In this document: one piece after another, positions 4,200 to 56,237 of the stretch
How the letters are laid out: every line of letters starts with the position of its first letter
Position numbering within the stretch: the first letter of the stretch is position 1
Assembly (NCBI GenBank): GCA_965237525.1
Contig: CBDEFO010000007.1
Span: 672,001 to 736,000 of the forward strand
Reading direction: 5' to 3'
DNA from: Candidatus Latescibacterota bacterium
GTDB taxonomy: Bacteria; Latescibacterota; CBDEFO01
Length of the DNA stretch: 64,000 nt
Program-made: the position numbers and the translations under genes
The notes under the pieces: generated by a model
The model's database searches: none
The model's input: the letters and a program-made list of their open reading frames with translations, nothing else
What the model was told of the DNA's origin: nothing

Positions 4200-4289
4200 A
4201 ATTATAAAGAGTGTTAAAAAGCTTGACTCGTCTGTACCCTGAAAATGGAGCCAGTTTAGTAGGAGTGTTTTATTTTGGGGCTGAATTAG

Positions 4290-4538
4290 CCCGATTAATT
4301 CATAAACTTGATGGAAGTCATTGCGAGGAGCAAAGCGGTCCCCGATTGAGTCTATCGGGGAAGCAATCTCAAGGTTTTATAGTGGTCTCCTATCAGAGCC
4401 GGAGAGTATTACATCTACCACAGAATCGAGATTGCTTCGCCTCCGGCTCGCATTGACACCGAAGGTGGTTAAACGGCATAACTATAATATAATACAATCC
4501 CTTAATTAATACACGGCCTTTTTTGTGAATTATTCGGG
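4290..4538 (+). mobile_element. MITE, long subfamily, copy 1 (249 bp)
   Basis: TIRs CCCGATTAATTCATAAA ... TTTGTGAATTATTCGGG, flanked by TTAG direct repeats (4286-4289 and 4539-4542). Near-identical to the copies at 42601 and 55770. No transposase ORF. Confidence 0.9.
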
Positions 4539-4606
4539 TTAGACGAAGAACATTTATTTTATATGCTTTCCCAAAGTCCAAAGCGTTACCGAGAAAGAGG
4601 ATCCAA

Positions 4607-5001
4607 ATGAGCCGAAAAATAATCGTAGCAATCCTGCTGAGCATCTTGTTGCATACCGCATGTAGTTCTACAAAACCCCCTGCAAGCTTTATAAGCGCCT
4701 TTGACGAGCCTGGGATATGGCAAACTGTTGAGATTCCAGAAGAGCTGAAGAAGGAAGTTTTATGGCAAATAGTATCGGATGGCTTAACTCAAAAATTTGA
4801 CCTGGAGGTGATCGACAAAGATAGTGGTTAGATACGTACTTCTTGAAAGTACAGTTATAGCGCTATAGGAAGGATCAATGAAAAATATAGAACGCGTGTA
4901 TCCTCAAATTGATGGGCAAGGACGGGAAAATCATTCAGATTAAATCGGAGGCTAATTGGCTGAGTAAGGGTGGATCGGTACTTGGCAATGATACATGGTT
5001 G
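4607..5001 (+). pseudogene. Lipoprotein pseudogene
   Basis: Signal peptide with lipobox (LHTAC). The frame continues through stops (DKDSG*IRTS*KYSYSAIGRINEKYRTRV), then frameshifts and abuts a MITE at 5006. Confidence 0.65.
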
Positions 5002-5005
5002 TTAG

Positions 5006-5168
5006 CCCGAATTATTCACAAACTTGGCTCAAATATTGCATAAGTCACTGTTACACAATAGTTCGTTGACTGGTGAATCCACTGGTTCTTCAAAGGAGAC
5101 CGAAAATTAAAAGTCCTGTATTGACAGTAGCTTATCACAGGTTCCTCAGAATGTATGAATTATTCAGG
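5006..5168 (+). mobile_element. MITE, short subfamily, copy A (163 bp)
   Basis: CCCGAATTATTCACAAACTTG ... TGTATGAATTATTCAGG, flanked by TTAG and TTTG. Shares the internal AAAGTCCwGTATT and CTCAGA motifs with the 40751 element. Confidence 0.72.
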
Positions 5169-5300
5169 TTTGAGCATATATACGGTGATCTTCAAGGGAG
5201 AATAGGGAGGGTGCGTGGCTAAAACTTCCGTTGTGCATCACTCCCAGGTAAGCATTTTCCTTTATATATAGAGTCCTGATCTTTAGCGACTAAAAAGTTC

Positions 5301-5329
5301 TTGACAGGGAAGGAATTTTTTCATATATT
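5301..5329 (+). promoter_or_regulatory. sigma70-type promoter of groESL
   Basis: TTGACA-N17-TATATT. Confidence 0.8.
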
Positions 5330-5331
5330 TA

Positions 5332-5359
5332 TTAACACTCAACTTGATAAGAGTGCTAA
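5332..5359 (+). promoter_or_regulatory. CIRCE-like operator (HrcA site)
   Basis: TTAACACTC-N10-GAGTGCTAA versus the consensus TTAGCACTC-N9-GAGTGCTAA, directly downstream of the groES promoter. Confidence 0.75.
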
Positions 5360-5417
5360 AATCTTAACGTAATAAGAGTCTGTTCACAATTACTTATTGG
5401 CAGGAGGAGAAAGCAGA

Positions 5418-5708
5418 ATGAAGGTGAAACCACTGGGCGACCGTGTTTTGATTAAGCCCGTTGAAGAAGAGGAACAGATCAAAGGTGGTATAATTATTCC
5501 GGATACTGCAAAGGAGAAGCCTCAAGAAGGAGAAGTCATCGCTGCGGGACCCGGAAGGATCACAGAATCAGGAGATAAGCTCGCCATGGAGGTAAAAAGT
5601 GGCGACAGGGTCCTGTATGGGAAATATTCAGGCACCGAGGTGCGTTTGAACGATGTGGAGCATCTTATTATGCCAGAGAGTGATATTTTAGCTGTTATCG
5701 AAGATTAG
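5418..5708 (+). CDS. groES: Co-chaperonin GroES
   Basis: [13 protein letters not shown]...[26 protein letters not shown]. Confidence 0.98.
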
Positions 5709-7364
<1,656 letters not shown>

Positions 7365-7391
7365 TGAGAGAAGTTGAGGTCTATTCTCTTC

Positions 7392-7428
7392 GAGCCCCCA
7401 TAGGAACTCCCTGTGGGGGCTTCTTATT
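7392..7428 (+). terminator. Probable intrinsic terminator after groEL
   Basis: Hairpin GAGCCCCCATAGG-AACTC-CCTGTGGGGGCTT followed by CTTATT. Confidence 0.65.
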
Positions 7429-7450
7429 GCGGCCAAAAAATGCTCTGCAA

Positions 7451-7478
7451 TTGAAAAATTTACGCTATGGCGTATAAT
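7451..7478 (+). promoter_or_regulatory. sigma70-type promoter
   Basis: TTGAAA-N16-TATAAT upstream of ORF 7545. Confidence 0.55.
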
Positions 7479-7544
7479 TCTGAAAGAGAGCAGAAGAATA
7501 CAGATTGTCAAGTTTGCTGAAATTCAAAACAGAGGGAAAGGGCC

Positions 7545-8423
7545 ATGAGAGACTTTTCGGAACGTTTGAAGCAAGAGATTTTAGTGTCTGAGTGCGCTAT
7601 GGGGACTATGCTTCAGGGCATAGGGCTTCAGACGGGCGTGGAATTCGGGGAGGAGTGGAACCTTACGGCAAGGGAGAAGGTTCAGTCGATTCACAAAGCA
7701 AACATAGATGCGGGAGCAGGTATTATTTTTACAAATACGTTTGGGGCAAATAGGTTCAGACTTGAGCACTATGGACTTGCCGAGAAGAGCGGGGAAATCA
7801 ATAGTAAAGCTGCTGAGAACATTAGGCAGATAGCCCCAGATTCGGTGTATGTGGCCGGGAATATGGGCCCTTCGGGAGGGATACTGGAAATCTGGGGTGG
7901 AAATAAGTCCCCTGAGGAGATATATGAGGCGTTCGTGGAACAGGTATCGGCTCTTTCAGACGGAGGAATAGACCTGGTGATAGTTGAGACTATGATGGAC
8001 TTGGAGGAGGCTAAGATCGCAGCTCGGGCTTCAAAAGAGAATACAAACCTTCCCGTAATAGCTTCTATGTCTTTCGATAAGGATAGGAATGGTTACAGGA
8101 CTCCCTGGGGGATAAGCCCTCAGATGGCGGTGGAAGGGTTAGCTGCCGCAGGAGCAGATGTGGTGGGAGCAAATTGTCAGATTACCATAGCAGATATGGT
8201 AGGTTTAGCGGCTGAATTTAGGGCGTGCACAGACATTCCTATCATAGTGCAGCCGAACGCCGGAAATCCGGAGATGATAAAAGGAGTCACATATTACAGA
8301 CAGACAGCCCGGGACATGGCAAAATACTTAGACGAGCTTATAGCGGCAGGTCCTAATATAGTAGGCGGCTGCTGCGGCACAACTCCCGAGTACACAGAGC
8401 TCGTGGCCGAAAAAGTCAAGTAA
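7545..8423 (+). CDS. Stand-alone homocysteine S-methyltransferase domain protein (MetH N-terminal module)
   Basis: Motifs AMGTML, TNTFGANR, ETM, GANC, PNAGNP and GGCCGTTPE (zinc-binding cysteines). Confidence 0.9.
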   Translation: MRDFSERLKQEILVSECAMGTMLQGIGLQTGVEFGEEWNLTAREKVQSIHKANIDAGAGIIFTNTFGANRFRLEHYGLAEKSGEINSKAAENIRQIAPDSVYVAGNMGPSGGILEIWGGNKSPEEIYEAFVEQVSALSDGGIDLVIVETMMDLEEAKIAARASKENTNLPVIASMSFDKDRNGYRTPWGISPQMAVEGLAAAGADVVGANCQITIADMVGLAAEFRACTDIPIIVQPNAGNPEMIKGVTYYRQTARDMAKYLDELIAAGPNIVGGCCGTTPEYTELVAEKVK

Positions 8424-8818
8424 CAGGGCGTGATAGATGGGATTTATAATCGTCAGTCTTTTTATGTTTGCCACCTTCAGTCAGTTTATGAAGTTGACTG
8501 TGCACAAAGGATACAATCGCTTTGCCATAGCAACCATAAACTATTTCATTGCCGCTCTGGCGGTGGGCTTGTATGAGCTGAATATAGGGATTTGTAAGTT
8601 CAACGGGAAAGTATTATGGCTTGGGATATTGGCGGGCATCTCTTTTACCGCGGGTTTGATGGCTCAATTCAGAGGAATAGGGATAGGAGGGCTGTCAGTA
8701 ACTCAGACTGTATCTAGGCTCTCCGTGTTGGTTCCTATCAGCCTGTCGATAATCATCTGGCACGAGACTCCAAGTTCGGGGCAAATAGCAGGGATACTAT
8801 TCATCGTGTTGGCCTTAG

Positions 8819-10337
8819 AAGCCTTGTGAAAAACCCTTAGATTCAGAAAGTAGTATAGAACAAGCATTGATAAAGCAGCTCCGATGTATTATATTATGTT
8901 ATTGATAATATTATACATGGAGGAAACAATGACCCCACAAAAGCAGGAACAGACAAATCCGATGTTTCACTATTTTCAGATGGAGGATTTAGTTCCCGAG
9001 GATCATATCCTTCGTCAGATTGATGAGGCAGTTGATTTTTCATTTGTACGAGACGTTGTATCAGATTGTTATTGCCCTGACAATGGCAGACCCGGTATTG
9101 ATCCTGAATTAGTTGTTCGAATGATCCTTATTGGCTATCTGTATAATTTGAGTGAGAATCGGCTCTGTCAGGAAGTGGGGATGCATGCGGCATATCGGTT
9201 GTTTTGTCATCAGACATTTGATGATGCGGTTCCGGATAGGAGCACGATCAACAAGCTTCGCAATCACAAGTGGGCATCCAGTGGGTTGTTTGAACGGATA
9301 ATGCGTCAGGTAGTCCAGTGTTGCATAGATGTCGGTCTTGTGAGCGGTAAACACCTTAGTGTCGACGGTACTCAGATACAAGCTGATGCTTCAGTGAAAA
9401 GTATTGAGCCGATAGAACCCCCTGTTTCTCTTGATGATTATCTCAAGGGAATCGGTTTTGAAGGTGATAAGACAAAGGGTAGGTCCGGGCATCCTCAGGA
9501 TAAAGACTTTCATGGTGAAAAGTGGACGAACCAAACACACCGTTCGACTACAGACCCCGACGCGCGCTTATACAGCAAATCGAAGGGCAAAGGGGCTTTT
9601 CTCTCGTTTATGGGCCATGATCTGATCGACACAAAAAGCAGAGTAATCCTTGAGACTCAGGGCACGCAGGCGACAGGGACAGCAGAGCCCGAAAGTGCCC
9701 TTAAGATGGTAGATGACCTTGAAACATACACCATGCCCAAAGACATTCAGACACTTAGTGCCGATACCGGTTACGGTTCTGGTAATTTTATCGCTGATGT
9801 ACTTGACCGGGGAATCATACCCCATATTCCTCTGCGAGCCGATGAGAAGATTGAACCGATTCCTACATGGAAAAACAAGACAAATTCAGCACATATTCAG
9901 GCCGAACGCGATAGAAAAGTGCGAGAGGCGAAAGCCAGAAATCATGCACGGTCTATCTCATTAACAGCTGACTACAAACTCTCCCGGAGACTCCGTAAAC
10001 GCAGTGAACATATCTTTGCTGAAGCCAAGCAACAACACGGTATGGGACGAGCCCGTTATAGAGGACTAGCCTCACTGAATGAACAGTTGAATCTTGTTGC
10101 AACAGTACAGAATCTCAAGAGGCTTGTATCTTTCATAAGAAGGGGGAAAGCGTCTATGTGTGCCCTGTCTGTCAAAGACAGTGCATCCTGTTCTTCAAAC
10201 AGCTCCTATTCCTTGCTGACCAGAACTCTGATAAGACTATTTTGCTTATTCCACAGCAAAACGATACGATATGCTACTCTTTGACCCATAATCGGCGCTT
10301 CAGACGCTGCCTGGGACATAACTATTTCACAAGGCTT
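8819..10337 (+). mobile_element. IS1182-family insertion sequence, copy 1 (1519 bp)
   Basis: 13-bp TIRs AAGCCTTGTGAAA / TTTCACAAGGCTT and a TTAG target duplication (8815-8818, 10338-10341). Confidence 0.92.
8929..10284 (+). CDS. IS1182-family DDE transposase
   Basis: DUF772-like N-terminus (VPEDHILR...GRPGIDP) and catalytic motifs SVDGT, SADTGY and EHIFAEAK. GGAGG RBS before ATG 8929. Confidence 0.9.
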   Translation: MTPQKQEQTNPMFHYFQMEDLVPEDHILRQIDEAVDFSFVRDVVSDCYCPDNGRPGIDPELVVRMILIGYLYNLSENRLCQEVGMHAAYRLFCHQTFDDAVPDRSTINKLRNHKWASSGLFERIMRQVVQCCIDVGLVSGKHLSVDGTQIQADASVKSIEPIEPPVSLDDYLKGIGFEGDKTKGRSGHPQDKDFHGEKWTNQTHRSTTDPDARLYSKSKGKGAFLSFMGHDLIDTKSRVILETQGTQATGTAEPESALKMVDDLETYTMPKDIQTLSADTGYGSGNFIADVLDRGIIPHIPLRADEKIEPIPTWKNKTNSAHIQAERDRKVREAKARNHARSISLTADYKLSRRLRKRSEHIFAEAKQQHGMGRARYRGLASLNEQLNLVATVQNLKRLVSFIRRGKASMCALSVKDSASCSSNSSYSLLTRTLIRLFCLFHSKTIRYATL

Positions 10338-10947
10338 TTAGTGTTGCTGAGCAAGAAAAGTAGCGTGGTCGTCTCCGAGAATTCGAGTAGATGGTCTGTG
10401 TGGATTGTGCTTTCACTTTTTATCCCTGCAGGTGCGAGCTCGACGATGTCGAAATTAGTGCACGAGGTGGGCTTGGACGACTACAGATCAGCCTATCTTT
10501 TTGTGCTTTATATATCTGCGACAGTTTTATCGGGGGCAGTGTTTTATTTTAAGAGGGATAAGATAAGCCGAGTGGAAGTTCTTATAGGGGTTTTGTTGGG
10601 GTTATGTAACGTGTCAGGAGTGTGGAGTCTGCTGATAGCTTTATCACAGCTCAAAGGTGTGGTGGCCTTTCCTTTTATGAGCTCGGGCGCGGTGATCATA
10701 GTAACTATATTGTCTACGGTGATATGGAAGGAGCATCTGCCATTGAGAGGTGTCTTTGGAATCCTGTGCGCTGCAGCGGCGCTGATACTTATAAATCTGT
10801 GAAATTACCCTATTTCCCCTCTACTGTGAGCCGCATCACAGTAGAGATGCTAATATTTGATTACCTTTGACAATGGGGCAATTTTGAATTACTCGTTGCC
10901 GGAGCGTTTTCCGGATTTTTAGGGCTTTAACAATAAAAAGGCATACG

Positions 10948-13900
10948 ATGAGAAAAATGCTCATATTTCCGGCTCTGCTCCTTGTAATACTATCCTTCGG
11001 GGCGGATGTTCAAGCACAACAAAATAGTAAGTACGTTGAACATCAAGTGATTGTTAAGATGAGTGAAAAGATTCAAGCAGCGGATATCGTTAGTATGAGA
11101 GAGAACCTTAATGCTTCAGTGCTCAAGAAATTATGGATCGTTGACGCTGAACTTTGGGAAACACCGGGAATTACCGTGGAAGATGCTATCTATCAATACC
11201 GTAATGACCCTCGTATCGAATATATTGAGCCGAACTATCGTGTCTGGGCTGTGGAAACTATCCCGAACGATAGCAGCTTTTCTCAGCTTTGGGGATTGCA
11301 CAATACTGGGCAGACAGGCGGAACATCCGATGCGGACATCAATGCTGTTGACGCCTGGGATATTCAGACTGGCACTGATGTCTTAATAGGCGTCATAGAT
11401 ACAGGCGTAGACTGGACGCACGAAGAACTTGCGGATAATATCTGGACTAATCCGGGAGAGATCCCAGATAACGGTATTGATGATGATGGAAACGGTTACA
11501 TCGATGACGTCAGAGGATGGGACTTTGTAAACAAGGATAATGATCCTATGGACGACAACGGTCACGGAACTCACGTAGCCGGGACCATTGCTGCTGTCGG
11601 AAATAATGGAATAGGCGTTGTTGGAGTCTCTTGGTCGGCACAAATAATGCCACTTAAGTTTTTGGGAGCCGATGGTTCTGGAATTACCTCCGATGCGATT
11701 TTAGCTATAGAATATGCGATGATGATGAGCGCAAAATTAACTAACAATAGTTGGGGTAGCAGTGGATTTTCCCAGGCTTTATATAATGCGATTGCTGTTT
11801 CAGGGAACGCTAACATCCTCTTCATAGCCGCCGCAGGAAATGGAGGTGATGATAATATCGGAGATGATAATGATCAGGACCCTCACTACCCTTCCAGCTA
11901 CGATTTGGACAATATCATTTCCGTTGCCTCCACGAATCATAACGATGCTAAATCTTCCTTTTCCAACTTCGGCTTTACGTCAGTCGATCTGGGCGCTCCG
12001 GGCTCAAGTATTCTCAGCACCGTGCCAGGAGATACCTACAGCTTTCTCAGCGGGACCTCTATGGCGACGCCACATGTGTCCGGCGCTGCCGCTTTGATTT
12101 GGGCTCAATATCCAGATCTGACGAATCTTCAGGTCAAGAATAGGATTGTGAGCACTGTAGATCCGATCCCTGCGTTAGATGGCAGATCGGTTACAGGTGG
12201 AAGACTGAATGCCTTTGTTGCATTAGCAGAACCGGATAGTATCCCACCGGCTGCCGTGACCGATTTAGCCGCAGCAGACCCGACCTCAAATTCTATAACG
12301 CTTACATGGACAGCCAGCGGGGATGACAGCGCCTTCGGCACATCAGCGTATTATGATATCCGATATGCAACCTCTCCGATCGATTCCGGGAATTTTGATT
12401 TGGCTACTGAAGTTTTGAACGAACCGGATCCTCAAGAGACTGGTTCTTTGGAGACGTTCACAACAGGTGGACTAGGTTTCAATACGACCTACTATTTTGC
12501 CCTGAGAGTTTTTGATGAGCAGGGGAATGGGTCAAAAGTTTCTAACTCGCCATCGGCTGCGACGTTGGGCAAACCTGATATCTCAGTTACACCGGATTCT
12601 CTGAGCGATAGTCTGCTCACAGCAAGCACATCCACTCAAATCCTTACTATATACAATGTAGGAGAGGGAACGTTAGACTTTACTTTTCCGGATTTTGCTT
12701 CTGCCGCTTTATTAAACACGCCAGGGATTGAAAGGAACGATGTCTCAAGTCGTTTTGAACATTTAGGACTCGAAAAGGGGCTGACAGATCTGCGAGAGGG
12801 GAATCCCCTCATTTTAGGAGCAGGAGGCCCAGATGGCTTTGGCTATCGGTGGATCGATAGCGATGAACCGGGTGGACCCATCTTTAACTGGATTGAAATA
12901 TCGAAAGTCGGGACACCGATATTGTTACTTGATGATGATGTTGAGGAAGTCACTCTGCCTTTTACCTTTCCGTTTTATGGAGAAGCAAAGACAACCCTCA
13001 AGATCTCGTCGAATGGCTATCTTACGTTTGGTGCAGATGGGACAGATTTCTCAAATGATCCTATTCCAGATCCTGTTGATCCCAATGACTTAATTGCGCC
13101 ATTTTGGGACGATTTGAATCCGAGCGCTGACGACACTATCTTTTACTATCACGACACTGATCAGAATCGATTTATTGTGCAGTACACTGGGCTTCCTCAC
13201 TATAGCGCTGGAGGTCCCTACACCTTCCAAGTTATCCTCTACACTGATGGCAGTATGCTCTTTCAGTATCTGGATATGCTTCCTCCTTTGGATAGTGCCA
13301 CGATAGGTGTCGAAAACCGAGATGCTTCCGATGGCTTACAAGTAGCTCTTAACACAGACTTTATCCATGATAGTCTCGCCGTTAGTGTCTCAGCTATTCC
13401 TCAATGGTTAAGCCTTAATCCTGTATCTGGCACTGTTCTACCGGGTTCATCGGTGGACATTGCTGTGAACTTCGATGCAACAGGTTTGAACGGCGGCAAT
13501 TATGATGCGCATATTGTGATTGCCAGCAACGATCCGGATGAGCCACAGGTACGAGTTCCTGCGCATCTGCATGTGACAGGCGTGCCGGATATTGCTGTTT
13601 CTGCTGATACTTTGGATTATGGCTTTGCCCTCATTGGAGCATCTGTCGACGATACGCTGATTGTCTCGAATATAGGGACCGATACATTGACGGTGAGCAG
13701 CATTGCATCGGATAATCCAAATTATACCGTAGATTTGACCGGTCTTAGATTAGCTCCCGGAGAAAGTCAGGAGGCGTTGGTAAGTTTTGCGCCGGTAGAT
13801 ACAGGAATAAGTAGCGGGACATTGACGATAACAAGTGATGTTCCGGATGCACCCATGGTGACTGTGACGCTAACTGGCGAGGGATTAATTGCGCCGAATA

Positions 13901-38524: not shown

Positions 38525-39349
38525 ATGAATCGTATCATCGTAATGGCCCTTATATGCATGTGCTGTACGGGAAGCAAGATAGATGCTTGGATTATTGACT
38601 TGAAACAGTCTCTTAATCTTGCGAAAGGCGGCACAATCTCCGCAGAGACTGTAGCAAACTGGGTAAACGAAACTACAAGTGCAGATACGCTGCTGTGCAA
38701 CTCCCTAGTGGTCAGCGGAGATATTGATTTCAGGAGTAGTGGGATCGATACCGTGTGGTGTATGCTTTACTTTAAGGAAGCGACATTTCGAGGAAAGTCC
38801 TACTTCACAAGGACGATGTTTCAAGGAGGAGCCGACTTTACAGGAGCGACGTTTCAGGAAAAGGCCGACTTTGTAGAAGCGATCTTTCAAGGAGAAGCCG
38901 GCTTCGCAAAAGCGACGTTTCAACGTGATGCTGATCTCAGGGAAGCGATGTTTCAACGAGATGCCTACTTCACAGAAGCAACGTTTCAGCGAGAAACTAT
39001 CTTCTGGGGTGTAACGTTTCAAGGGGAAGCTCACTTCACAGAAGCGACGTTTCAAGAAGCAGCCGATTTCACAGAAGCGACGTTTCAAGAAGCAGCTGAT
39101 TTCACAGAAGCGACGTTTCAAAGAGGGACGGATTTCACAAAAGCAACGTTTCAACGAGAGACCGAATTTGCAGAAGCGATGTTTCAACGAGATGCCCACT
39201 TCGCAGAAGCGATGTTTCAACGAGAGACAAACTTTAGGGGTGTAATGTTTCAAGGAGAGGCTGACTTCAGGGGTGTGACGTTTCAAGGGAAGGCCGACTT
39301 CAGGGGTGTGACGTCTCACGGAAAGGCCGACTTCAGAGATGCATTTTAG
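38525..39349 (+). CDS. Secreted pentapeptide-repeat protein, probably 3'-degraded
   Basis: GGAGG RBS, hydrophobic leader and 17 repeats of 11 aa. A degenerate continuation follows in another frame after TAG 39347-39349. Confidence 0.75.
   Translation: MNRIIVMALICMCCTGSKIDAWIIDLKQSLNLAKGGTISAETVANWVNETTSADTLLCNSLVVSGDIDFRSSGIDTVWCMLYFKEATFRGKSYFTRTMFQGGADFTGATFQEKADFVEAIFQGEAGFAKATFQRDADLREAMFQRDAYFTEATFQRETIFWGVTFQGEAHFTEATFQEAADFTEATFQEAADFTEATFQRGTDFTKATFQRETEFAEAMFQRDAHFAEAMFQRETNFRGVMFQGEADFRGVTFQGKADFRGVTSHGKADFRDAF
38780..39340 (+). repeat. Coding tandem repeat, 17 x 33 bp
   Basis: Units such as GCGACGTTTCAAGAAGCAGCCGATTTCACAGAA (ATFQEAADFTE), contiguous and without spacers. Confidence 0.92.
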
Positions 39350-39460
39350 TCAAAAGGGAGTCGACGTGACAACTCACTTCCTGAACTCCTTCAAATTACG
39401 TGATGCAACGGCCTTCGCTGATAAAATTTCGTTGAAGATATGCTTCATCTCTTAGGGGCA

Positions 39461-40750: not shown

Positions 40751-40899
40751 GCCGAATAATTCGTGAAATCTGAGAAATCTGCACAAATACTGGACTTTCC
40801 AGTTATCGCACGAAAACAAAGTTTCTTAGCCTAAATTGTATAATCGATTGTCGTACATAGAATTATAGAACTTTTCAGCAAGTTTATGAATTAATCAGG
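40751..40899 (-). mobile_element. MITE, short subfamily, copy B (149 bp)
   Basis: GCCGAATAATTCGTGAAA ... CAAGTTTATGAATTAATCAGG, flanked by CTAA direct repeats (40747-40750, 40900-40903). Confidence 0.8.
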
Positions 40900-40913: not shown

Positions 40914-40942
40914 TTGACATCTAACAAGTTCGTCTGTATCAT
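40914..40942 (+). promoter_or_regulatory. sigma70-type promoter with no ORF immediately downstream
   Basis: TTGACA-N17-TATCAT. Confidence 0.55.
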
Positions 40943-42585: not shown

Positions 42586-42600
42586 CAGAGAAGGAGTTAG

Positions 42601-42849
42601 CCCGATTAATTCATAAACTTGGTGGAGTCATGGCGAGGAGCAAAGCGGTCCCCGATTGAGTCTATCGGGGAAGCAATCTCTAGGTTTTATAGTGGTGTCC
42701 CATGAGAGTCGGAGAGTATTACATCTATCACAGAATCGAGATTTCTTCGCCTTCGGCTCGCAATGACACCGAAGGTGGTTAAACGGCATAACTATAATAT
42801 AATACAATCCCTTAATTAATGCACGGCCTTTTTGTGTGAATTATTCGCG
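42601..42849 (+). mobile_element. MITE, long subfamily, copy 2
   Basis: Near-identical to 4290-4538. TTAG at 42597-42600 and again at 42851-42854, so the right end is ambiguous by 1 bp. Confidence 0.9.
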
Positions 42850-42861
42850 TTTAGGTAGAAA

Positions 42862-43536
42862 ATGCGTAAAATAACAAAATCCTCTTTGTGTCCGCTTCTG
42901 CGCCTGGTGTTTCTTGGCATGTGGCTTTTTAGTTGTCCATTGTGGGCACAGGAAAAAGCGATCAAGTCGCAATATCCCTTGATGTCGCCGAAACTCGGTG
43001 AACGCTGCATCGTCTGTGGAGTCCTGTTGACAGAAAACGACACAGTATTGATCGTTCGCGGCCGTCGGGTGCCATTAAAAAGAGCGATGGTCGATTCGTT
43101 CTTGAGTAATCAGGAAAAGTACTTTTCCCAAAAGCAGCCGAAAAGCGCCTTATTTCAGGAGGAACTTGATGTCCCGGTCGGTGTTGCACAAGGCGGAATC
43201 AGTTTGAGCTGGTTCCTCATCGGCCTCTACACGTTAGTCGGGCTCATTTTCGGCGGAATGAGCGGGTACACTGCGGTGTCAAAGGGTTTTTCACCGATCC
43301 CTCATTTTTTCATCGGTCTACTGTTCAACGTGTTCGGCTATCTGTACGTGTTGACGCGGAAAGCCACCGCCCAGAAAGGCGAGATACCAGCCGGGCTGGT
43401 CAAAGTACCGATAACGCATGCGCCAGTTCCCTGCTGGGAGTGCGGCAGGACCAATCACCCGTCAGCCAGACACTGCGCAGACTGCGGAGCCGAATTAGAG
43501 CCGAAAATAGAGTCAGAAGTAGATCGGACGTCCTAA
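42862..43536 (+). CDS. Membrane protein with an exported CxxC (YHS/TRASH-like) domain and a C-terminal zinc ribbon
   Basis: Signal peptide, CIVC...FLSNQEKYF, two TM helices, then CWEC...CADC. Confidence 0.7.
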   Translation: MRKITKSSLCPLLRLVFLGMWLFSCPLWAQEKAIKSQYPLMSPKLGERCIVCGVLLTENDTVLIVRGRRVPLKRAMVDSFLSNQEKYFSQKQPKSALFQEELDVPVGVAQGGISLSWFLIGLYTLVGLIFGGMSGYTAVSKGFSPIPHFFIGLLFNVFGYLYVLTRKATAQKGEIPAGLVKVPITHAPVPCWECGRTNHPSARHCADCGAELEPKIESEVDRTS

Positions 43537-47773: not shown

Positions 47774-47828
47774 TCTCACAGCGGATAGGGTTCGCTAAGT
47801 AAGGACTCAAACTGACGAGGAGCATAAA

Positions 47829-49376: not shown

Positions 49377-49506
49377 AAACCTGCGTAACCTGTTGCCTGA
49401 GCACGCCATTGATCTGCAAATATAAACAAAAGGTTTGGCTGTTTAGCTTTCATCAGCTCCTTCTTTGTCCCTTCACATAGTAATCTATTCACCAGTTGCT
49501 GTTTCT

Positions 49507-50268
49507 TTAGTGAAGGGAGTGGTCAGGTGCACTTGCTCCTAAAGTAGTTGTGAGTAACTCACTTTTTTCTTCCGTTGGCAGATTTGAGGGAAAAATTTCT
49601 ACTTCATCAGTCCACCCATCAGTACCTTCACAATTAACAGACACTTCAACCTTAAAGGGTTCTAACTTCTTGCCTTCATCGAGAACCATTCTAATCCAAA
49701 TAGTTATAGGTTGTTGCTTATTCCTATTCCAATACAGCAAATTGCTATTGGAAAGTACACCTGTATCTCCAAACTCTAACCAATGAAGCTCCCTCTGGGA
49801 AGAAAACATATTAGAATTGAAGGTGAGTTCTGTGTAATGCCTTTGCCCTTCTTTCTTGTCTTTGGGATGTAGTTTCTTAAGGGGAAGTCTAAAAGTCAAA
49901 ACTGGCTTAACCCAATCGAAGTCTGAAGTATTAGTTATCTCAAATTCAACTTTACGGGAAGTAAAAGGATTAGGATGATCTTGGTAGACTCTTTTCAATG
50001 GTTCTGACAGCTCATCCTTAGGATGTTTATGAATTTCAGCCGAACTAATATGTGCTTTTACTTCCGCCTTCACCTTCTTCCTAGGAGGATCTGCTATAGC
50101 TAGGGCAACAATAACAGTAATCAATACTGCGAGCGTGCCTACAACTTGAACTACATTTCCAATATTAGAGGGTTTCTTCTTTGGTAAATCGTGAATCCAG
50201 AAACAAGATACCACACCCACAAAAACCAGAATCATTATGACGATCCAGTATCCCCACTTAATATTCAT
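49507..50268 (-). CDS. Hypothetical membrane protein, AT-rich
   Basis: 253-aa ORF with two N-terminal TM helices, an AGGAGG RBS, and a minus-strand promoter TTGTCT-N17-TATATT at 50334-50362. Confidence 0.7.
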   Translation of the reverse strand: MNIKWGYWIVIMILVFVGVVSCFWIHDLPKKKPSNIGNVVQVVGTLAVLITVIVALAIADPPRKKVKAEVKAHISSAEIHKHPKDELSEPLKRVYQDHPNPFTSRKVEFEITNTSDFDWVKPVLTFRLPLKKLHPKDKKEGQRHYTELTFNSNMFSSQRELHWLEFGDTGVLSNSNLLYWNRNKQQPITIWIRMVLDEGKKLEPFKVEVSVNCEGTDGWTDEVEIFPSNLPTEEKSELLTTTLGASAPDHSLH

Positions 50269-50621
50269 ATTTTTCTAACCTCCTAGCATTTGCTCCATAT
50301 TTGATCGTAGTAACTCATTTTGATTCTCCCTATAATATACAAAAGTTCAGAGCAGTAGACAAGGATTTATGCCAGTTACCCACAAGTTCCTATGATTCCA
50401 TTGTTAAATCATAGCTTCCACAGAGAGAAACATATAAAACTCCTCGGTAAAAGTCGAGGTCTAATAGCCTCTGAACGAAACAAACGCACGTGATTTTCAT
50501 CCGATTATTTCTTAAAACACATTGACAAACAAAGACAGCAAAGATTATATTTTTGAACGGAATTGTATCGGCATCGAAGCCGTTGCGTATCTTCCTATCT
50601 TGTTTCCACCACGAGGAGAGG

Positions 50622-50970
50622 ATGGCCTCTAAAATCAGAATAGGGTTCATAGGATGTGGGGGCATATCGAACGGTCACGCAAAGAGGATCGCTCAGATTT
50701 AAGAAGGACAGATCCCGAGCTCTCGGGAAGAGGGCAGTTGAACGATTCGGGAAGCCATCTTCCGGATATAATCTTTTGGATGACAGATCTTGGCGTATCT
50801 GAGGTCTCTGCGTTCTGCGATGATTTAGGGACCCCTGTGGATATAAACACCCTTGTGTCGATGTAGTTTGAGAACGGAGCGCAGGGGAAATTACCATAGT
50901 AGGCGGCGCGCCGACGACGTACTTGGAGGACATAAGTATGATGAAAGTCTCCAATTATTAGGATTTGCAC
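50622..50970 (+). pseudogene. Gfo/Idh/MocA oxidoreductase remnant with a large internal deletion
   Basis: MASKIRIGFIGCGGISNGHA...* is joined to DPELSGRGQLNDSGSHLPD...M*FENGAQG. RBS present, and TTGACA at 50522. Confidence 0.8.
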
Positions 50971-51072
50971 TAAAAATAGCTAGGGAAACAATGTTCAAAC
51001 CCCAGACAAAGGGGCGGGATTATTGTCAGAAGGAATTGAGTTCTGAAAGAGACAGAAAAGGGATCTGCACTT

Positions 51073-51372
51073 GTGGCTAATCTGGAGTCCATGATCGAAT
51101 TTGCCAGCGATAGTATTGTGAGCAAGACGGTTGCGGAACAGTCCTGCTGCAAGGTGGTGTTGTTCTGCATGTCGTCCCGACATACGCTGTCCGAGCACAC
51201 AGCGCGTTCCGCCGCCGCGATTCAGATCCTCCAGGGGAGAGGAAAGTTACAGCTGGGAGAAGAAAGCTGTTGTGCCGAGGCGGGCGTCTGGATATACATG
51301 CCTTCAAATTTGCCGCACGCTGTCCAGGCAGAAGAAGACCTCGTGTTTCTGCTCACGTTGTTCCAATTATAG
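51073..51372 (+). CDS. Cupin domain protein
   Basis: Motifs LSEHTA, QILQGRG and MPSNLPHAVQAEED. Confidence 0.8.
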   Translation: MANLESMIEFASDSIVSKTVAEQSCCKVVLFCMSSRHTLSEHTARSAAAIQILQGRGKLQLGEESCCAEAGVWIYMPSNLPHAVQAEEDLVFLLTLFQL

Positions 51373-51627
51373 AAACGATTTACTTTCTCAAGACCGACTG
51401 TGCTCCCAGAGACGTGTGGACAGCATAACGGCAGCGGACAGCGAGATTGCTTCGGGGGATTTCATTCCCCTATCAATGCCTAAGTCAGAACCGAGGAATG
51501 ACAGAAGGCAAGAGCAGCCAGGGATTGAAGATCTCACAAGCAACGTCTTTGCGACCCCCCCCGATTGAATCTATCGGGGATGGCGTTGGGGGCTACTGTT
51601 TACTGGAGAAGGAAGAGGAGGGGTATT

Positions 51628-52383
51628 ATGCGGTTTCTCGACCAGGTAGCCGTAGTTACAGGAGGCGGCAGCGGAATAGGGAAGGCTATCGCCTCTGTTT
51701 TGTCGGAAGAAGGGGCGTCCATAGTGATTATGGACGTGGATAAAGGTGCCACAGACGAGACAGTGCGGGAACTGGGGAAAAATAATGTCAAAACTTTGGG
51801 CCTGGAATGCGATGTCTCCGAAGTAAGACAGGTTCAAAAGGCTTTTGACTCTGCGATAGATCAGTTTGGAAGGATCGACATTCTGGTCAACAACGCAGGT
51901 ATTCAGTTCAACTGCCCGATTGTAGAGCTTTCCCCGGAAGATTGGAAGCGGGTCTTGGGCGTGGATTTAGACGGTGTTTTCTTCTGCAGTCAGGCGGCGG
52001 GACGGTATATGATCGATCAGAAAGGCGGCTGTATCGTGAACATCTCCTCGATAGCAGGGCCTTTTGCCTTCCCAAGGAGAGCGCCCTATTGTGTAAGCAA
52101 ATCCGGGGTGATAGCCCTAACCAAGGTGTTAGCTGCAGAATGGGCGGAATATAACATCCGTGCCAACGCTGTGGCACCCGGATATGTGGAAGCGGGAATA
52201 TTGCTCAAGTTTGCCGAACTTGGACACGTAGACCTGGAAGAGCTCAGGCAAAAGAATCTGATGAAGCGTCTGGCAGATCCTATTGAGGTAGCCCGGACCG
52301 TGGCGTTTCTGGCGTCTCCCGATGCAAGCCACATCACGGGCGAGACGCTCTTTGTGGATGGAGGATACAGCGCGATGAAGTGA
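51628..52383 (+). CDS. SDR family oxidoreductase
   Basis: Motifs VTGGGSGIG, NNAG, YCVSK (YxxxK) and VDGG. RBS before ATG 51628. Confidence 0.92.
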   Translation: MRFLDQVAVVTGGGSGIGKAIASVLSEEGASIVIMDVDKGATDETVRELGKNNVKTLGLECDVSEVRQVQKAFDSAIDQFGRIDILVNNAGIQFNCPIVELSPEDWKRVLGVDLDGVFFCSQAAGRYMIDQKGGCIVNISSIAGPFAFPRRAPYCVSKSGVIALTKVLAAEWAEYNIRANAVAPGYVEAGILLKFAELGHVDLEELRQKNLMKRLADPIEVARTVAFLASPDASHITGETLFVDGGYSAMK

Positions 52384-52433
52384 TAAATGCAAAGGTATCA
52401 CAACATCGCAATAAGCCCTGTCGATCCTGTAGC

Positions 52434-53261
52434 TCAGCAGTAGTACGAGAATCTCTCAATTTTCCCTCTCCTTACAATGCCTAATATGACCCTGATGGCT
52501 GCGTAGCCTGAGATGTACGCCGCCGCTGTCGCTGAGAAGAAGTGGATAAGAGAGGGGTCACCGAAGAGTATGGAAAAGCTTTTGGGGGAGAAAGAAGTAT
52601 AGGACACGTGCAAGGCGATCGGGCGACTTAACTGGAGCACTGTTTGCGCCGAGTATTGCAGGGATGGCAAATAGGAATGAGAATCGAACGGTGTATTCCA
52701 CCTGGACGCCTCTCAGAAGGGCTGTGACGATGGTGAAACCCGACCTGGAGATACCCGGAAGAACGCGAAGGCCTCAGCGATCCCTATAACGATAACATCT
52801 CTTGCATTCTGATCTCTTGCAGGGTTAGGACTGTAGCGGGTGCACCAAAGGAATGTCCCTGTAACTATGAGCATGATAGGTGCCAGCTGAGGGATGGGAA
52901 ATAAGCACTCTATATGACTTTTGAAAAAAAACCGGCTATCGCTATTGGAACTGTGGCAAGAAGCAGGAACAAGATGGTCCTCAGATTCAGGGCTTCGTTC
53001 GACAATAAGCGTAAATTTTGACCTTTAGAGACGCTCTCTGTCGCAACTAAGAGCGAGGATGTGAGGTTCTTCAAGTCCCTCCAGAAGGCTGTACATATGG
53101 TAAGGAGGGGACCAAAGTGGGTCATAACCTCAAAGGAGATTCCAGGGGGATCGATATCTAATATGTATTGTAGAAACACCAGGTGACGGCTACTGCTTAC
53201 TGGGCGGAATTCGGTTTGACGCCTGGGCAAGACCGATCAGGAGAGCTTGAGATAGGGTCAT
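52434..53261 (-). pseudogene. uppP: Undecaprenyl-diphosphate phosphatase pseudogene with multiple frameshifts
   Basis: The fragments MTLSQALLIGLAQ, TEFRPVSSSRHLV, PGISRSGFTI, RFSFLFAIPAILGA and FSYYC are spread over different frames. Confidence 0.85.
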
Positions 53262-53267
53262 GCTCGT

Positions 53268-54869
53268 TCAAAGCTCCATCGGTTTTAGCATACAGCCCTC
53301 TGTAAATATCTCAAAGAAGTCTGCCTCCTGTTCCAGTTCGATATGTTCTATCTTCTTGACTTCTGTTTCGAGGAACTGCCGTCTTTGTTTTGAAAGCAGT
53401 ATTTCTTTCGCCCCTTCCAGAGCTGCGTTCCCGACCTTTACTATCTTTTCTTTGGGAAACGGCGGGATAAGGCCGATGGCGATGGCGTTTTCGGCCGTCA
53501 TATAATTTGCAAAGCCTCCGGCAAAGTAGAATTTCTTGATTTTATCTAAACTTATTCCGGATTTCCTCAAAAGTATCTGCTGTCCCGAGTAGTTGGCGGC
53601 TTTGGCCTGCGCAAGTTCGCTCAAGTCCTTTCTGGAGAGCGTTATCTTCGGGCCCTCTGCGACCGTGTATTTGTCTACGCCGTCGGTGAACCTTGTGAGT
53701 TGATCGAGTCTGCCCTTTCTCAGAAGTTCCGCCATAAGGTCTATAAGACCTGAGCCGCATATCCCTCTGGGCTCTATGCCTCCTATTGTGCTACATCTCA
53801 GTTTACCGTTATCGAAGGATGCGGACTCTATTGCTCCCTCCAGTCCGGGCATTCCGTAGGTGATTCCTCCTCCCTCAAAGGCGGGTCCTGCAGGACAGGA
53901 GGCTGCCAGCATACGGTCTCTGTTTCCAAGCAGGACTTCTGTGTTCGTGCCTATATCTACGAGCATATTCGGCTCGTCAGATTCGAGCATTCCTGTGGAC
54001 ACTAGACAGGATGCGGCGTCGGCTCCCACGTGGCATCCGACTAAAGGAGCGCCGTAGACCTTCCCTTTGCGGTTTATTCTGACGCCCGTTTTGAACGCCC
54101 TTGCGCTTAAGGACGTGGTGGATCTTTTGCCCTGTTCCATCTCTATTTCGGTGACGGATTTGTAGGGCTTCTCTCCGATAGACTTTACACTTATTTTGAA
54201 GAATATATCTCTCATCGTGGCATTTCCGACCGCGACCATTTCGTATATCTGGTTCCTTCTGCAGGGAAAGTCTCTTATTTCGTTGTTTATATATGCCAGC
54301 AGGACTTTGTTGAGTTCTCCGTTTTGATGTTCGTTTTCGTACTGGATCCTGTGCATTATGTCGCTGCCGCCGAACATCTGTGGATTTTCAAAGGAGGTAT
54401 TGGCTACTTCCTCTCCTGTCTGCAGGTCCATAAGACTCATCACTATCGTAGTTGTGCCGATGTCGGCTGCGATGCCGTAGATTTTGTCTCTATATTGATC
54501 TATCTCCTCATCGTTGTAGAGGACTACCTCGCCTCTTCTCTTAACCACAGGGTCCAGTTCTATCTTCTTGGGCTCTCCGAACGTAAGTATTTTGGGGCGT
54601 CTTACGAGTGTAAGTACCTGTATATCTTTTGTGGAATCTGCTATTTTCGCCTGACAGGAGAGCCTGAAGTTCTCTTCGAGAAACTGTTCCTGTTCGGCTT
54701 TGGGTGTTAGGGCGCCGATCCCCTCCTTGATTTCGACTATGCATTCGTGACAGCTTCCGACTCTACCGCAGGAAGTGGGCACTTTTATGTCGAGATCGTC
54801 CGCAAAATCAAATATGGTTGCTTCTTTCCGGAGTTTTGTCTCTTTATAATTTATGGAGATTTTCCCCAT
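53268..54869 (-). CDS. ASKHA/DUF4445 reductive activator of corrinoid proteins (RACo/RamA-like) with an N-terminal [2Fe-2S] domain
   Basis: CGRVGSCHEC...RLSCQ, ADIGTTT, DIGTNTE, AGPAFEG, GICGSG and AGGF. Confidence 0.88.
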   Translation of the reverse strand: MGKISINYKETKLRKEATIFDFADDLDIKVPTSCGRVGSCHECIVEIKEGIGALTPKAEQEQFLEENFRLSCQAKIADSTKDIQVLTLVRRPKILTFGEPKKIELDPVVKRRGEVVLYNDEEIDQYRDKIYGIAADIGTTTIVMSLMDLQTGEEVANTSFENPQMFGGSDIMHRIQYENEHQNGELNKVLLAYINNEIRDFPCRRNQIYEMVAVGNATMRDIFFKISVKSIGEKPYKSVTEIEMEQGKRSTTSLSARAFKTGVRINRKGKVYGAPLVGCHVGADAASCLVSTGMLESDEPNMLVDIGTNTEVLLGNRDRMLAASCPAGPAFEGGGITYGMPGLEGAIESASFDNGKLRCSTIGGIEPRGICGSGLIDLMAELLRKGRLDQLTRFTDGVDKYTVAEGPKITLSRKDLSELAQAKAANYSGQQILLRKSGISLDKIKKFYFAGGFANYMTAENAIAIGLIPPFPKEKIVKVGNAALEGAKEILLSKQRRQFLETEVKKIEHIELEQEADFFEIFTEGCMLKPMEL

Positions 54870-55029
54870 TGTGGATTATGCCCTTAATCTTGATTTGTGA
54901 AAATGGCTTGACAATCCTCGTCATATTTCTTTAAGATCTGGAGAGGAAATAGCGGACAGATCCAACAGTGCTTAACATTCATCGAATAGGAGGGGCATGA
55001 AGGAGAGCATAGAGGGGGCAAGTGAGCAA

Positions 55030-55620
55030 CTAAAAGAATTCTTTCAGGTCGCGCTCTTTACGTTTTGGACTTTCTTTTTCCTCTTTTTCTATCATATCCT
55101 GGTTAATGCCATTTTCATCCATTATCCTTCGGGCTACGTATATAGGGGCTGATACCCTGACAGCCAATGCTAGCGCGTCACTGGGGCGGGCGTCTACTTC
55201 CAGGGTGGAATCGTTGGTCTTCAGGCTAATAGTGGCATAATAAGTATTGTTTCTAAGGTCATCCACATATATGTAGAGAACTTCCACACCAAGGGTCCTG
55301 AGTACTGACTTCAAAAGATCGTGAGTCATAGGTCTGATCATCTTCTTTTTATATGTCTCGCGAAGGATAGCCTCAGATTCACAGGTGCCTATGGTGATAG
55401 GAAGGAACCTTTCTTCTTCCTTGTCGCTCAGGAGAACGACAGGAAAACCGAGGATGTTGTCGGCCGTGACGGTATATATCTTAGCCTCAACGGACGAACG
55501 GGGAACATTGGAGGGCAATTTTCTCTCAGACGCAAAGATGTCACGGCTTCTGTTGCCGGAGCAGTCTAAAAGAGCTGCAAGAGCAACAGCTATCAGCAGA
55601 AATAGTCTGAGTTTAACCAT
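55030..55620 (-). CDS. DUF151 bifunctional nuclease family protein with an N-terminal signal/lipoprotein-like leader
   Basis: Motifs LPITIG..E..AI, RPMTHDL and DARPSDALALA. Leader MVKLRLFLLIAVALAALLDC. Confidence 0.88.
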   Translation of the reverse strand: MVKLRLFLLIAVALAALLDCSGNRSRDIFASERKLPSNVPRSSVEAKIYTVTADNILGFPVVLLSDKEEERFLPITIGTCESEAILRETYKKKMIRPMTHDLLKSVLRTLGVEVLYIYVDDLRNNTYYATISLKTNDSTLEVDARPSDALALAVRVSAPIYVARRIMDENGINQDMIEKEEKESPKRKERDLKEFF

Positions 55621-55704
55621 AGTGACTCTCCTCTTTACATTGAAGATTTAGGTTCAACTTATGAAGCTGACGACTGCTCCATGCAGACAGGCATTGCATG
55701 TCAA

Positions 55705-55733
55705 AGTATAGGGTATATTGTGTGAGAAGTCAA
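55705..55733 (-). promoter_or_regulatory. sigma70-type promoter for the DUF151 gene
   Basis: Minus-strand TTGACT-N17-TATACT. Confidence 0.7.
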
Positions 55734-55769
55734 GGTCTTTTTTGACGCTTTCGGACAGGTTGTTTTTAG

Positions 55770-55998
55770 CCCGAATAATTCATAAAAAAAGGCAGTGTAT
55801 TAATTAAGGGATTGAATTATATTATAATTATGCCGTTTGACCACTTTCGGTGTTATTGCGAGCCGAAGGCGAAGCAATCTCGATTCTGTGGTAGATGTAA
55901 TACTCTCCGGCTCTCATAGGAGATCACTATAAAACCTTGAGATTGCTTCGTCGCTTTGCTCCTCGCAATGACTCCACCAAGTTTATGAATTAATCGGG
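55770..55998 (-). mobile_element. MITE, long subfamily, copy 3 (229 bp, inverted, lacks the nested hairpin)
   Basis: Reverse complement of 4290-4538, flanked by TTAG at 55766-55769 and 55999-56002. Confidence 0.9.
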
Positions 55999-56237
55999 TT
56001 AGAAGATTATGAGAAAGCTTTTGAGTTTGGTTCTTCTTTGCTACTCCTTCACAGAGTCGAGATTTGGCACTTATGAATGGCTCTGCTTGGCCTCGGACTC
56101 AATTCGCTGTCAGCCGAAGCCCAGAGCCACGCGAAGGGTCAGCCAAGCAATCTCAATTATCAAGCGGCACGCAGGAGTTTACATTTTGGAGCAACGTAGT
56201 GATTGTCACATATCAATCAAATCTTCGTAACCGAATT

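What the first reader, a model, noticed from the sequence alone, without database searches (positions are those of the whole stretch)
4286..56002. Unannotated MITE family with five copies, two subfamilies, shared TIRs and a TTAG/CTAA target duplication
Seen: three long elements (4290-4538, 42601-42849, and 55770-55998 inverted) and two short ones (5006-5168, 40751-40899) all end in CCyGAwTAATTCAyAAA-like inverted repeats. They are flanked by TTAG or CTAA direct repeats regardless of orientation, and none encodes a transposase. The two subfamilies have unrelated interiors. Five copies in 64 kb implies many genome-wide. Inference: these are non-autonomous elements moved in trans by a DDE transposase encoded elsewhere. 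CC termini with a 4-bp duplication would fit IS1380-like elements, but this is tentative. Copy 2 carries TATAAT boxes near its right end, about 12 bp before the 42862 start codon, so it may alter expression of that gene.
Basis: partly seen in the sequence, partly recalled or inferred. Interest (0 to 1): 0.72.

Follow-up and report, generated by a model that had tools for sequence, protein, structure and literature searches.

The report
IS1380-derived miniature transposon family
The five short repeats are real miniature transposons: four have precise empty sites in a sister genome, all share their ends with an IS1380 insertion sequence found elsewhere in this genome, and they are likely moved by its transposase, which makes them a well-documented new example of an ordinary kind of element.

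Summary
Confirmed, with corrections. All five elements exist. They form three unrelated types (229/249 bp, 163 bp, 149 bp), not two, and only 3 of 5 have a perfect 4-bp duplication. The genome holds 50 full-length long copies; 33 have perfect 4-bp repeats, 30 of them TTAG/CTAA. The likely partner is an IS1380 element (G000 C7:60944-62589) with the same ends and a CTAA duplication. It is frameshifted here and intact (444 aa) in sister genome G001. Four of the five window sites are precisely empty in G001, and 17 of 41 G001 elements are empty here. A 1.7-kb 'full-length' copy is a decoy: an IS1182-like element nested in a MITE. The promoter claim is unsupported. The long type is 61 bp of IS left end, a REP-like dimer and the IS right end. 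At 8 of 10 shared sites the genomes differ in an optional 21-bp hairpin, likely through gene conversion between copies. This scan has reported IS1380-type MITEs on other genomes and this hairpin on this genome before. Verdict: new member of a known kind.

The parts
4290..4538 (+). Long-type MITE, 249 bp (229-bp core plus 20-bp hairpin gain); IS right-end TIR on the left, IS left end on the right; TTAG duplication at 4286-4289 and 4539-4542
   Evidence: precise empty site in G001; RNA fold z -3.8
4317..4370 (+). First REP-like unit (GTCATTGCGAG...GCAATCTC type) of the internal head-to-head dimer, here carrying the optional hairpin
   Evidence: sequence; 142 such units genome-wide against 0 in a shuffle; unit also found in other genomes of the phylum
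4340..4360 (.). Optional 21-bp hairpin of a separate genome-wide family (541 clusters), at 'site 1' of the MITE
4428..4457 (-). Second REP-like unit of the dimer, inverted relative to the first
   Evidence: sequence; alignment
4478..4538 (-). 61 bp derived from the left end of the IS1380 element; stops before the -10 box of the putative transposase promoter
   Evidence: 87-89% identity of this part of the family to IS positions 1-61; end comparison; promoter reading is inference
5006..5168 (.). 163-bp type, only the TIRs shared with the IS; flanks TTAG/TTTG; 2 copies in G000, 2 in G001 at other sites
   Evidence: empty site in G001
40751..40899 (.). 149-bp type, only the TIRs shared with the IS; CTAA duplication; 1 copy in G000, 2 in G001 at other sites (98% identical)
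   Evidence: empty site in G001
42601..42849 (+). Long-type MITE, 249 bp, hairpin at 42650-42670; mutated right end; no clean duplication; G001 has about 1 kb of other DNA at this place
55770..55998 (-). Long-type MITE, 229 bp, without hairpin, inverted; TTAG duplication
   Evidence: precise empty site in G001

Best explanation
The elements are non-coding miniature transposons that carry the ends of an IS1380 insertion sequence and are likely cut and inserted in trans by its DDE transposase at TTAG/CTAA sites, which are duplicated on insertion. Shown: shared TIRs, the 4-bp duplication, empty sites, copy number, and the identity and ends of the partner. Inferred: the transposase recognises the roughly 14-20-bp TIRs alone, which would explain why three unrelated interiors move by the same rule. 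Inferred: the long type arose once from an IS copy that kept 61 bp of the left end and about 20 bp of the right end around a captured REP-like dimer. Inferred: it spread both before and after G000 and G001 split. Inferred: it is probably dormant in G000, whose only full-length IS is frameshifted, and potentially active where the IS is intact (G001). After insertion, resident copies likely exchange short patches by gene conversion, which would explain why the same orthologous copy has or lacks the 21-bp hairpin.
For: Partner: G000 C7:60944-62589 is 1646 bp, has MITE-type TIRs and CTAA on both sides. It matches PF13701 and NF033539 'IS1380 family transposase' above cut-off in two pieces. The G001 copy is 1647 bp, 98.7% identical, with an open 444-aa frame and a CTAG duplication. 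The same end motif borders distant IS1380 relatives in most of the 23 loci fetched. Duplication: 33 of 50 full-length G000 copies have identical 4-mers on both sides and none has identical 5-mers; in element orientation CTAA 17, TTAG 13, CTAG 2, ATAG 1, so the 4-mer is not a fixed part of the element. Empty sites: 4 of 5 window sites in G001; 6 of the 18 G000 elements (of 55 tested) whose flanks map into the 617 kb of G001 held; 17 of 41 G001 elements in G000, 16 with a 4-bp and one with a 3-bp overlap; one more 163-bp copy. 46 of 50 copies lie outside ORFs of 120 aa or more, although such ORFs cover 82% of the genome. Conversion: 8 of 10 shared sites differ in hairpin number. Two such pairs differ at only 3/205 and 4/206 other positions, against 9 for the nearest other G000 copy. 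The site-2 hairpin is a variant found in 3 of 284 hairpins outside MITEs but 8 of 44 inside, so it points to a single origin.
Against: No transposition was observed or assayed. G000 has no intact cognate transposase: one frameshifted copy, a 600-bp left half and fragments. A contig of run X1 carries the same frameshift, so it is probably real; the assembly has 8 contigs and is 96.6% complete. 17 of 50 copies lack a perfect duplication. For the G001 elements, 10 of 41 had no mappable orthologue and 5 gave other gap sizes, and 2 of the 17 empty sites show a diverged 4-mer. The MITE right end continues CTTG where both IS copies have CTTC, so the true parent may be a close relative of this IS. No parent IS was found for the 163- and 149-bp interiors. 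Window copy 42601 has no clean empty site. In 7 of the 9 shared pairs printed, the orthologue is about as close as, or further than, the nearest other G000 copy; this fits longer conversion tracts but weakens the 'short patch' wording.
Confidence: 0.92

Rival explanations
1. The abundant IS1182/IS5-like element (window 8813-10340 and 57927-59454) is the autonomous partner, since a 1747-bp element with MITE ends and a TTAG duplication surrounds its transposase at G000 C3:61901-63647.
For: That 1747-bp element exists, the element has 135 near-full copies, and its target duplication also looks TTAA/TTAG-like.
Against: The 1747-bp element is a MITE with the 1.53-kb IS nested at its internal TTAA; in the 120 best hits listed, all other copies match only about positions 24-1575 and lack the MITE ends. 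The IS has its own, different TIRs.
Confidence: 0.02
2. The elements spread as REP dimers (REPIN-like), moved by a single-strand nuclease (RAYT or Ssn type) acting on the internal hairpins, and the IS ends are passengers.
For: The long type holds a head-to-head dimer of GTCATTGCGAG...GCAATC units, which occur 142 times in G000 and as free dimers in other genomes of the phylum. G000 has a small GIY-YIG gene flanked by palindromic repeats.
Against: Empty-site boundaries fall exactly at the IS-type TIRs with a 4-bp duplication. The 163- and 149-bp types have no REP yet move the same way. No Y1 transposase was found in G000. The GIY-YIG gene is flanked by a different repeat type (GTCATTCCCG), and the published SRM pattern does not match the three long window copies.
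Confidence: 0.03
3. The elements are kept as regulatory modules (portable promoters or promoter-docked elements) that change expression of neighbouring genes such as the one at 42862.
For: Two TATAAT boxes face outward 64-69 bp before that ATG. The long type folds strongly as RNA. The 149-bp window copy sits 14 bp upstream of a -35/-10 pair. Outward promoters are documented in other IS1380 members (PMC9330008, passages).
Against: No complete sigma-70-type promoter in the two regions scanned overlaps a MITE. Gene starts lie within 400 bp beyond the left end in 17 of 50 copies and beyond the right end in 19 of 50, so there is no bias. A -35-like box lies 13-15 bp outside in 9 of 83 sites against 9.1% of 5332 control sites (p=0.56). 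Most sites are polymorphic between sister genomes. No transcript data bear on it.
Confidence: 0.1
4. The second IS1380 group, very abundant in G001 (about 48 intact 468-aa copies) and present as remnants in G000, supplies the transposase.
For: Same family, high copy number in G001.
Against: Its ends are different (CCCCCATTCGCCATAT-type) and its protein is only 28% identical to the cognate one.
Confidence: 0.03

Closest known systems
IS1380-family insertion sequences (IS1247, ISPme1, ISEcp1; PF13701, NF033539)
   Same: The partner element matches both family models above cut-off, is 1646-1647 bp (IS1247 is listed as 1672 bp, IR 16/13, DR 5 in PMC3281130, table passage), has one long ORF when intact, and has CC-starting TIRs shared with distant relatives.
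   Different: The finding itself is the non-coding derivative. The duplication is 4 bp with a strong TTAG/CTAA bias: 0 of 30 TTAA among TTAG/CTAA/TTAA duplications in G000, although TTAA is 39% of such intergenic sites; G001 has two TTAA cases. No outward complete promoter or one-ended gene capture of the ISEcp1/ISPme1 kind was shown.
IS-derived prokaryotic MITEs (MITEPye1/IS1182 in PMC11578231; QMITE, Chunjie, ERIC, SM1-4 as reviewed in PMC10969869)
   Same: Short, non-coding, TIRs matching a resident IS, target duplication, intergenic, folds as RNA, tens of copies.
   Different: The partner family is IS1380, for which my searches found no paper describing a MITE; ISfinder could not be consulted. 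Three unrelated interiors share one pair of ends, and the long type carries a REP-like dimer with an optional hairpin.
CGTC-tagged REP dimers (PMC3733652) and Ssn-related motifs (PMC11893778)
   Same: The interior of the long type is a head-to-head pair of GTC-tagged palindromes with a 57-bp spacer, as described for CGTC HH dimers (passages).
   Different: Here the dimer is cargo between IS ends. The family consensus figures were not visible to me, so the CGTC family number is not assigned. The SRM pattern does not match.
piggyBac transposons
   Same: CC(C/T) ends and 4-bp TTAA-like duplications, with TTAG and CTAA as minor variants; IS1380 transposases are used as their outgroup (PMC10813416 and PMC10140906, passages).
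   Different: Eukaryotic, with larger transposases and TTAA as the main target; relatedness was not tested here (no PDB sequence match).

Membership tests
Prokaryotic MITE | Short (<~500 bp) and without transposase | tested here: met
   149-295 bp; longest stop-free stretch 28-65 codons in four window copies
Prokaryotic MITE | Terminal inverted repeats | tested here: met
Prokaryotic MITE | Target-site duplication, confirmed by empty sites | tested here: met
   33 of 50 perfect 4-bp repeats; empty sites with a single 4-mer
Prokaryotic MITE | Multi-copy and dispersed | tested here: met
   50 full-length long copies on all 8 contigs; the short types have only 1-2 copies per genome
Prokaryotic MITE | TIRs match an autonomous IS of the same genome | tested here: met
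   G000 C7:60944-62589 and G001 locus L018
Prokaryotic MITE | Mobilised in trans by that transposase | not testable with these tools
   needs a transposition assay
IS1380 family (partner element) | Transposase matches family models | tested here: met
   PF13701 and NF033539 above cut-off
IS1380 family (partner element) | About 1.65 kb, single ORF, CC-starting TIRs, 4-5-bp duplication (size and DR from PMC3281130 table row for IS1247; the rest recalled) | tested here: met
   1646/1647 bp; open 444-aa frame in G001, frameshifted in G000; CTAA and CTAG duplications
IS1380 family (partner element) | DDE catalytic triad | tested here: inconclusive
   Acidic motifs near residues 153, 231 and 341 are conserved in four aligned relatives; their assignment as the triad is recalled, and no solved homologue was found
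IS1380 transposable modules (ISEcp1, ISPme1) | Outward complete promoter and capture of adjacent DNA through a secondary end | tested here: inconclusive
   No complete promoter in the two MITE regions scanned; capture through secondary ends was not examined
REPIN / RAYT system | Y1 (HUH) transposase flanked by the same REPs | tested here: not met
   PF01797 finds nothing in G000 (96.6% complete)
Ssn-SRM system | Small GIY-YIG gene flanked by the same repeat; repeat fits the SRM pattern | tested here: not met
   The gene at C4:479893-480114 is flanked by another repeat type; pattern absent from the three long window copies

The most novel reading that the evidence does not exclude
The MITE copies form a gene-conversion network that a second, 21-bp mobile hairpin exploits: the hairpin entered the MITE once at each of two sites and is now being copied in place into already-inserted, orthologous MITE copies (35 of 49 copies in G000 against 15 of 35 held from G001 at site 1). 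The entry itself follows a sequence rule: the same junction change at a GACGA target is seen independently in the MITE and in an IS3-like repeat. This would be a three-tier parasite (IS1380 transposase, MITE with REP dimer, hairpin) whose top tier spreads without transposing.
Probability: 0.5. Interest if true: 0.5.

Novelty: new member of a known kind. Interest (0 to 1): 0.3.

Why it matters
MITEs driven by a resident IS are a known kind, so the class is not surprising. This case is useful because the chain is nearly complete from sequence alone: three unrelated interiors, one partner with an intact allele, more than 20 precise empty sites and a clear TTAG/CTAA target. That makes IS1380 end recognition and target choice directly testable; a review I read in passages says the family's pathway is not known (PMC9330008). 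The shared sites also catch a 21-bp hairpin being gained or lost inside resident copies, which gives a handle on how such tiny palindromes spread. There is no evidence of a host function.

Tried and rejected
The 1747-bp element at C3 as the autonomous partner: rejected, it is a nested IS1182-like element. Frameshift in the G000 IS as an assembly error: unlikely, since a contig of run X1 has the same sequence while X2, X6 and X18 have the open-frame allele. Summed depth over the IS in X6 is about 620 against 23 on the right flank, but the tool warns that this is no copy number, so I draw nothing from it. Run X2 shows joints skipping both 4290 and 5006 copies; its junction letters match G001, so I do not count it as independent. 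Promoter docking 13-15 bp upstream of -35 boxes (lead from earlier scan notes): 9 of 83 against 9.1% in controls, rejected for this family. Rfam: no match in the window. PDB sequence search with the transposase: none. RAYT: none. Parent IS for the 163- and 149-bp interiors: none in G000 or in the loci held. Phylum survey: the full-length long type was found only in G000 and G001 of 121 genomes searched; 18 others match only the REP unit or the IS left end, and only 6 candidates per genome were scored. Rows dropped: one spurious TIR pair (C7:586714); L035 and L042 map to one G000 site and were counted once; the L035 pair did not print and is taken. The Fisher test on hairpin frequency (p=0.013) treats related copies as independent and is not relied on.
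Full report
Observation. The window lies at G000 C7:672001-736000. A degenerate end motif has 85 exact and 127 total hits in the 4.58-Mb genome, against 0 exact and 13-15 total in two shuffles. Three details need correcting. The short copies (163 bp at 5006, 149 bp at 40751) share nothing inside their TIRs with each other or with the long type, so there are three types. Only three of the five have a perfect 4-bp direct repeat. The TATAAT boxes of copy 42601 are 64-69 bp, not 12 bp, before the ATG, and a consensus scan finds no complete promoter there.

Census. BLAST with the 229-bp window copy gives 57 clusters in G000, 49 of them full length; a fiftieth is split by a nested IS. Lengths cluster at about 229, 249 and 269 bp, and copies differ by 6% on average outside the variable sites. 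Of the 50, 33 have identical 4-mers on both sides and none has identical 5-mers: CTAA 17, TTAG 13, CTAG 2 and ATAG 1 in element orientation. Both readings of the 4-mer occur with both orientations of the element, so it is target DNA. TTAA is not among the G000 duplications although it is the commonest such intergenic 4-mer; G001 has two TTAA cases. With the element removed, 46 of 50 sites lie outside ORFs of 120 aa or more, which cover 82% of the genome. The 163-bp type has 2 copies in G000 and 2 in G001; the 149-bp type has 1 and 2.

Partner. One TIR pair spans 1747 bp around a transposase, but this is a MITE with the genome's abundant IS1182/IS5-like element nested at its internal TTAA (135 near-full copies; family call, just under the IS1182 cut-off and above an IS5 one). 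Following unpaired ends led to C7:60944-62589: 1646 bp, the same TIRs, CTAA on both sides, and two ORF pieces that each pass the PF13701 and NF033539 IS1380 cut-offs. A sister genome of the same genus, G001, has a 98.7% identical copy with an open 444-aa frame and a CTAG duplication; the two differ by one gap column. A contig of run X1 has the G000 frameshift, while X2, X6 and the RNA run X18 have the open allele. G000 also has a 600-bp left half of the IS. The long MITE shares 61 bp with the IS left end at 87-89% and about 20 bp with the right end; the short types share only the TIRs. The same end motif borders IS1380 relatives of 29-71% protein identity in most of the 23 loci fetched. The other IS1380 group in these genomes has different ends and 28% identity. 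The title printed for the 100% identical locus names Candidatus Latescibacterota.

Empty sites. In G001 the sites of window copies 4290, 5006, 40751 and 55770 are empty, with one copy of the 4-mer (CCAA rather than CTAA at 40751). At 42601 G001 has about 1 kb of other DNA with a roughly 300-codon ORF that resembles signal peptidase I (label recalled from motifs, not scanned); G000 lacks it there, and I cannot tell which genome changed. Of 41 G001 elements, 17 are empty in G000, 9 are filled (8 distinct sites), 10 have no mappable orthologue and 5 give other gaps. Of 55 G000 elements, 18 mapped into the 617 kb of G001 held: 6 empty, 11 filled, 1 other. One G001 163-bp copy is also empty in G000. 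So all three types have moved since the genomes split, and about ten long-type insertions predate the split.

Interior of the long type. It is a head-to-head pair of GTCATTGCGAG...GCAATC palindromes with a 57-bp spacer. Such units number 142 in G000 against 0 in a shuffle and occur as free dimers in other genomes of the phylum, where the full MITE was not found (121 searched). This resembles the CGTC-tagged HH dimers of PMC3733652 (passages; consensus figures not visible). The element folds well as RNA (z -3.8; mononucleotide-shuffle z about -5 to -6 for the 229-bp form), while the short types do not. No RAYT was found, and the single small GIY-YIG gene is flanked by a different repeat type, like the Ssn genes of PMC11893778 (passages).

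The optional hairpin. The 20-bp length steps come from a 21-bp hairpin family with 541 clusters in G000 and none in a shuffle. I found it before consulting the scan's notes, which already describe it on this genome. It sits at two fixed places in the MITE: site 1 in 35 of 49 G000 copies and 15 of 35 G001 copies held, site 2 in 12 and 5. At the 10 distinct shared insertion sites the hairpin count differs in 8: G000 has more in 7 and G001 in 1. Two of these pairs are otherwise nearly identical (3/205 and 4/206 differences, against 9 for the nearest other G000 copy), so the change happened in place; in the other pairs the orthologue is no closer than the nearest paralogue. Each site carries essentially one loop variant with one junction, and the site-2 variant is rare outside MITEs (3 of 284) but makes up 8 of 44 inside. 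That favours a single entry followed by gene conversion between copies over repeated fresh insertion; three G001 copies with a different variant at site 1 are the exceptions. These steps are inference.

Mechanism. Most likely the IS1380 DDE transposase, supplied in trans, binds the short TIRs, excises or copies the element and joins it to a TTAG/CTAA target with a 4-nt stagger. Whether the pathway is conservative or replicative cannot be told here; PMC9330008 (passages) says the family's pathway is unknown. With its only full-length helper frameshifted, G000's family is probably dormant. Rivals (IS1182-like helper, REP-driven spread, the second IS1380 group, regulatory retention) are weighed in their own section. 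Promoter docking and co-orientation, reported by earlier scan notes for IS1380 MITEs in other genomes, do not hold here.

Comparison and novelty. IS-derived MITEs are established: MITEPye1 with IS1182 (PMC11578231, passages), Anabaena MITEs (PMC3542288, passages) and the review PMC10969869 (passages; 0 occurrences of 'IS1380' in the listing). IS1247 dimensions come from a table passage of PMC3281130, and the piggyBac link from passages of PMC10813416 and PMC10140906. My searches showed no paper describing an IS1380-derived MITE. The library lacks most subscription papers, I read no supplements, which may list such elements, and ISfinder was not available. The scan's own notes list 263 findings with these words in at least 188 genomes and one look-alike in another genome. 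I rate this a new member of a known kind, well supported, interest 0.3.

Noticed in passing
window 8813-10340 (+) and 57927-59454 (-): Two 99% identical copies of an IS1182/IS5-like element (466-aa ORF); 135 near-full copies in G000. The first splits an EamA-family gene (Pfam hits on both sides). One copy elsewhere is nested in a MITE.
   Followed up: partly
window 24538, 34771, 43647, 46190, 51559: Free copies of the 21-bp hairpin outside MITEs. The family nests in itself (46190 is longer than its G001 orthologue by 25 bp) and is polymorphic against G001 with net gains of about 19-36 bp.
   Followed up: partly
window 42586-42862 against G001 locus L062: G001 has a roughly 300-codon signal-peptidase-I-like ORF between the glucokinase gene and the next gene, where G000 has only the MITE. 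It could be a MITE-associated deletion in G000 or a gain in G001; G000 has an 84% match to part of it at C8:1636995.
   Followed up: partly
window 40914-40942: A TTGACA-17-TATCAT promoter-like site starts 14 bp beyond the 149-bp copy; it is also present at the empty G001 site, so it predates the insertion.
   Followed up: partly
window 5301-5329: Strong sigma-70-like promoter (11 of 12) upstream of groES-groEL, 130 bp beyond the 163-bp copy.
   Followed up: no
G000 C4:479893-480114: Small GIY-YIG gene flanked by inverted GTCATTCCCG-type palindromes, the architecture described for Ssn nucleases.
   Followed up: partly
G001 loci L051:843-980 and L053:798-935: 138-bp derivatives of the long MITE that have lost the middle of the REP dimer yet occur at two sites.
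   Followed up: no
G000 C5:3276-3491: Single 216-bp element with 48 bp of the IS1380 right end and a degenerate other end; a possible fourth type.
   Followed up: no
G001, loci L019-L023: A second IS1380 group with about 48 intact near-identical copies in G001 but only remnants in G000.
   Followed up: partly
locus L111 (G039): A related multi-copy IS1380 with an open frame and a left end 82% identical over 61 bp to the MITE end.
   Followed up: no
window 38736-39362: 33-bp tandem array encoding a pentapeptide-repeat protein.
   Followed up: no
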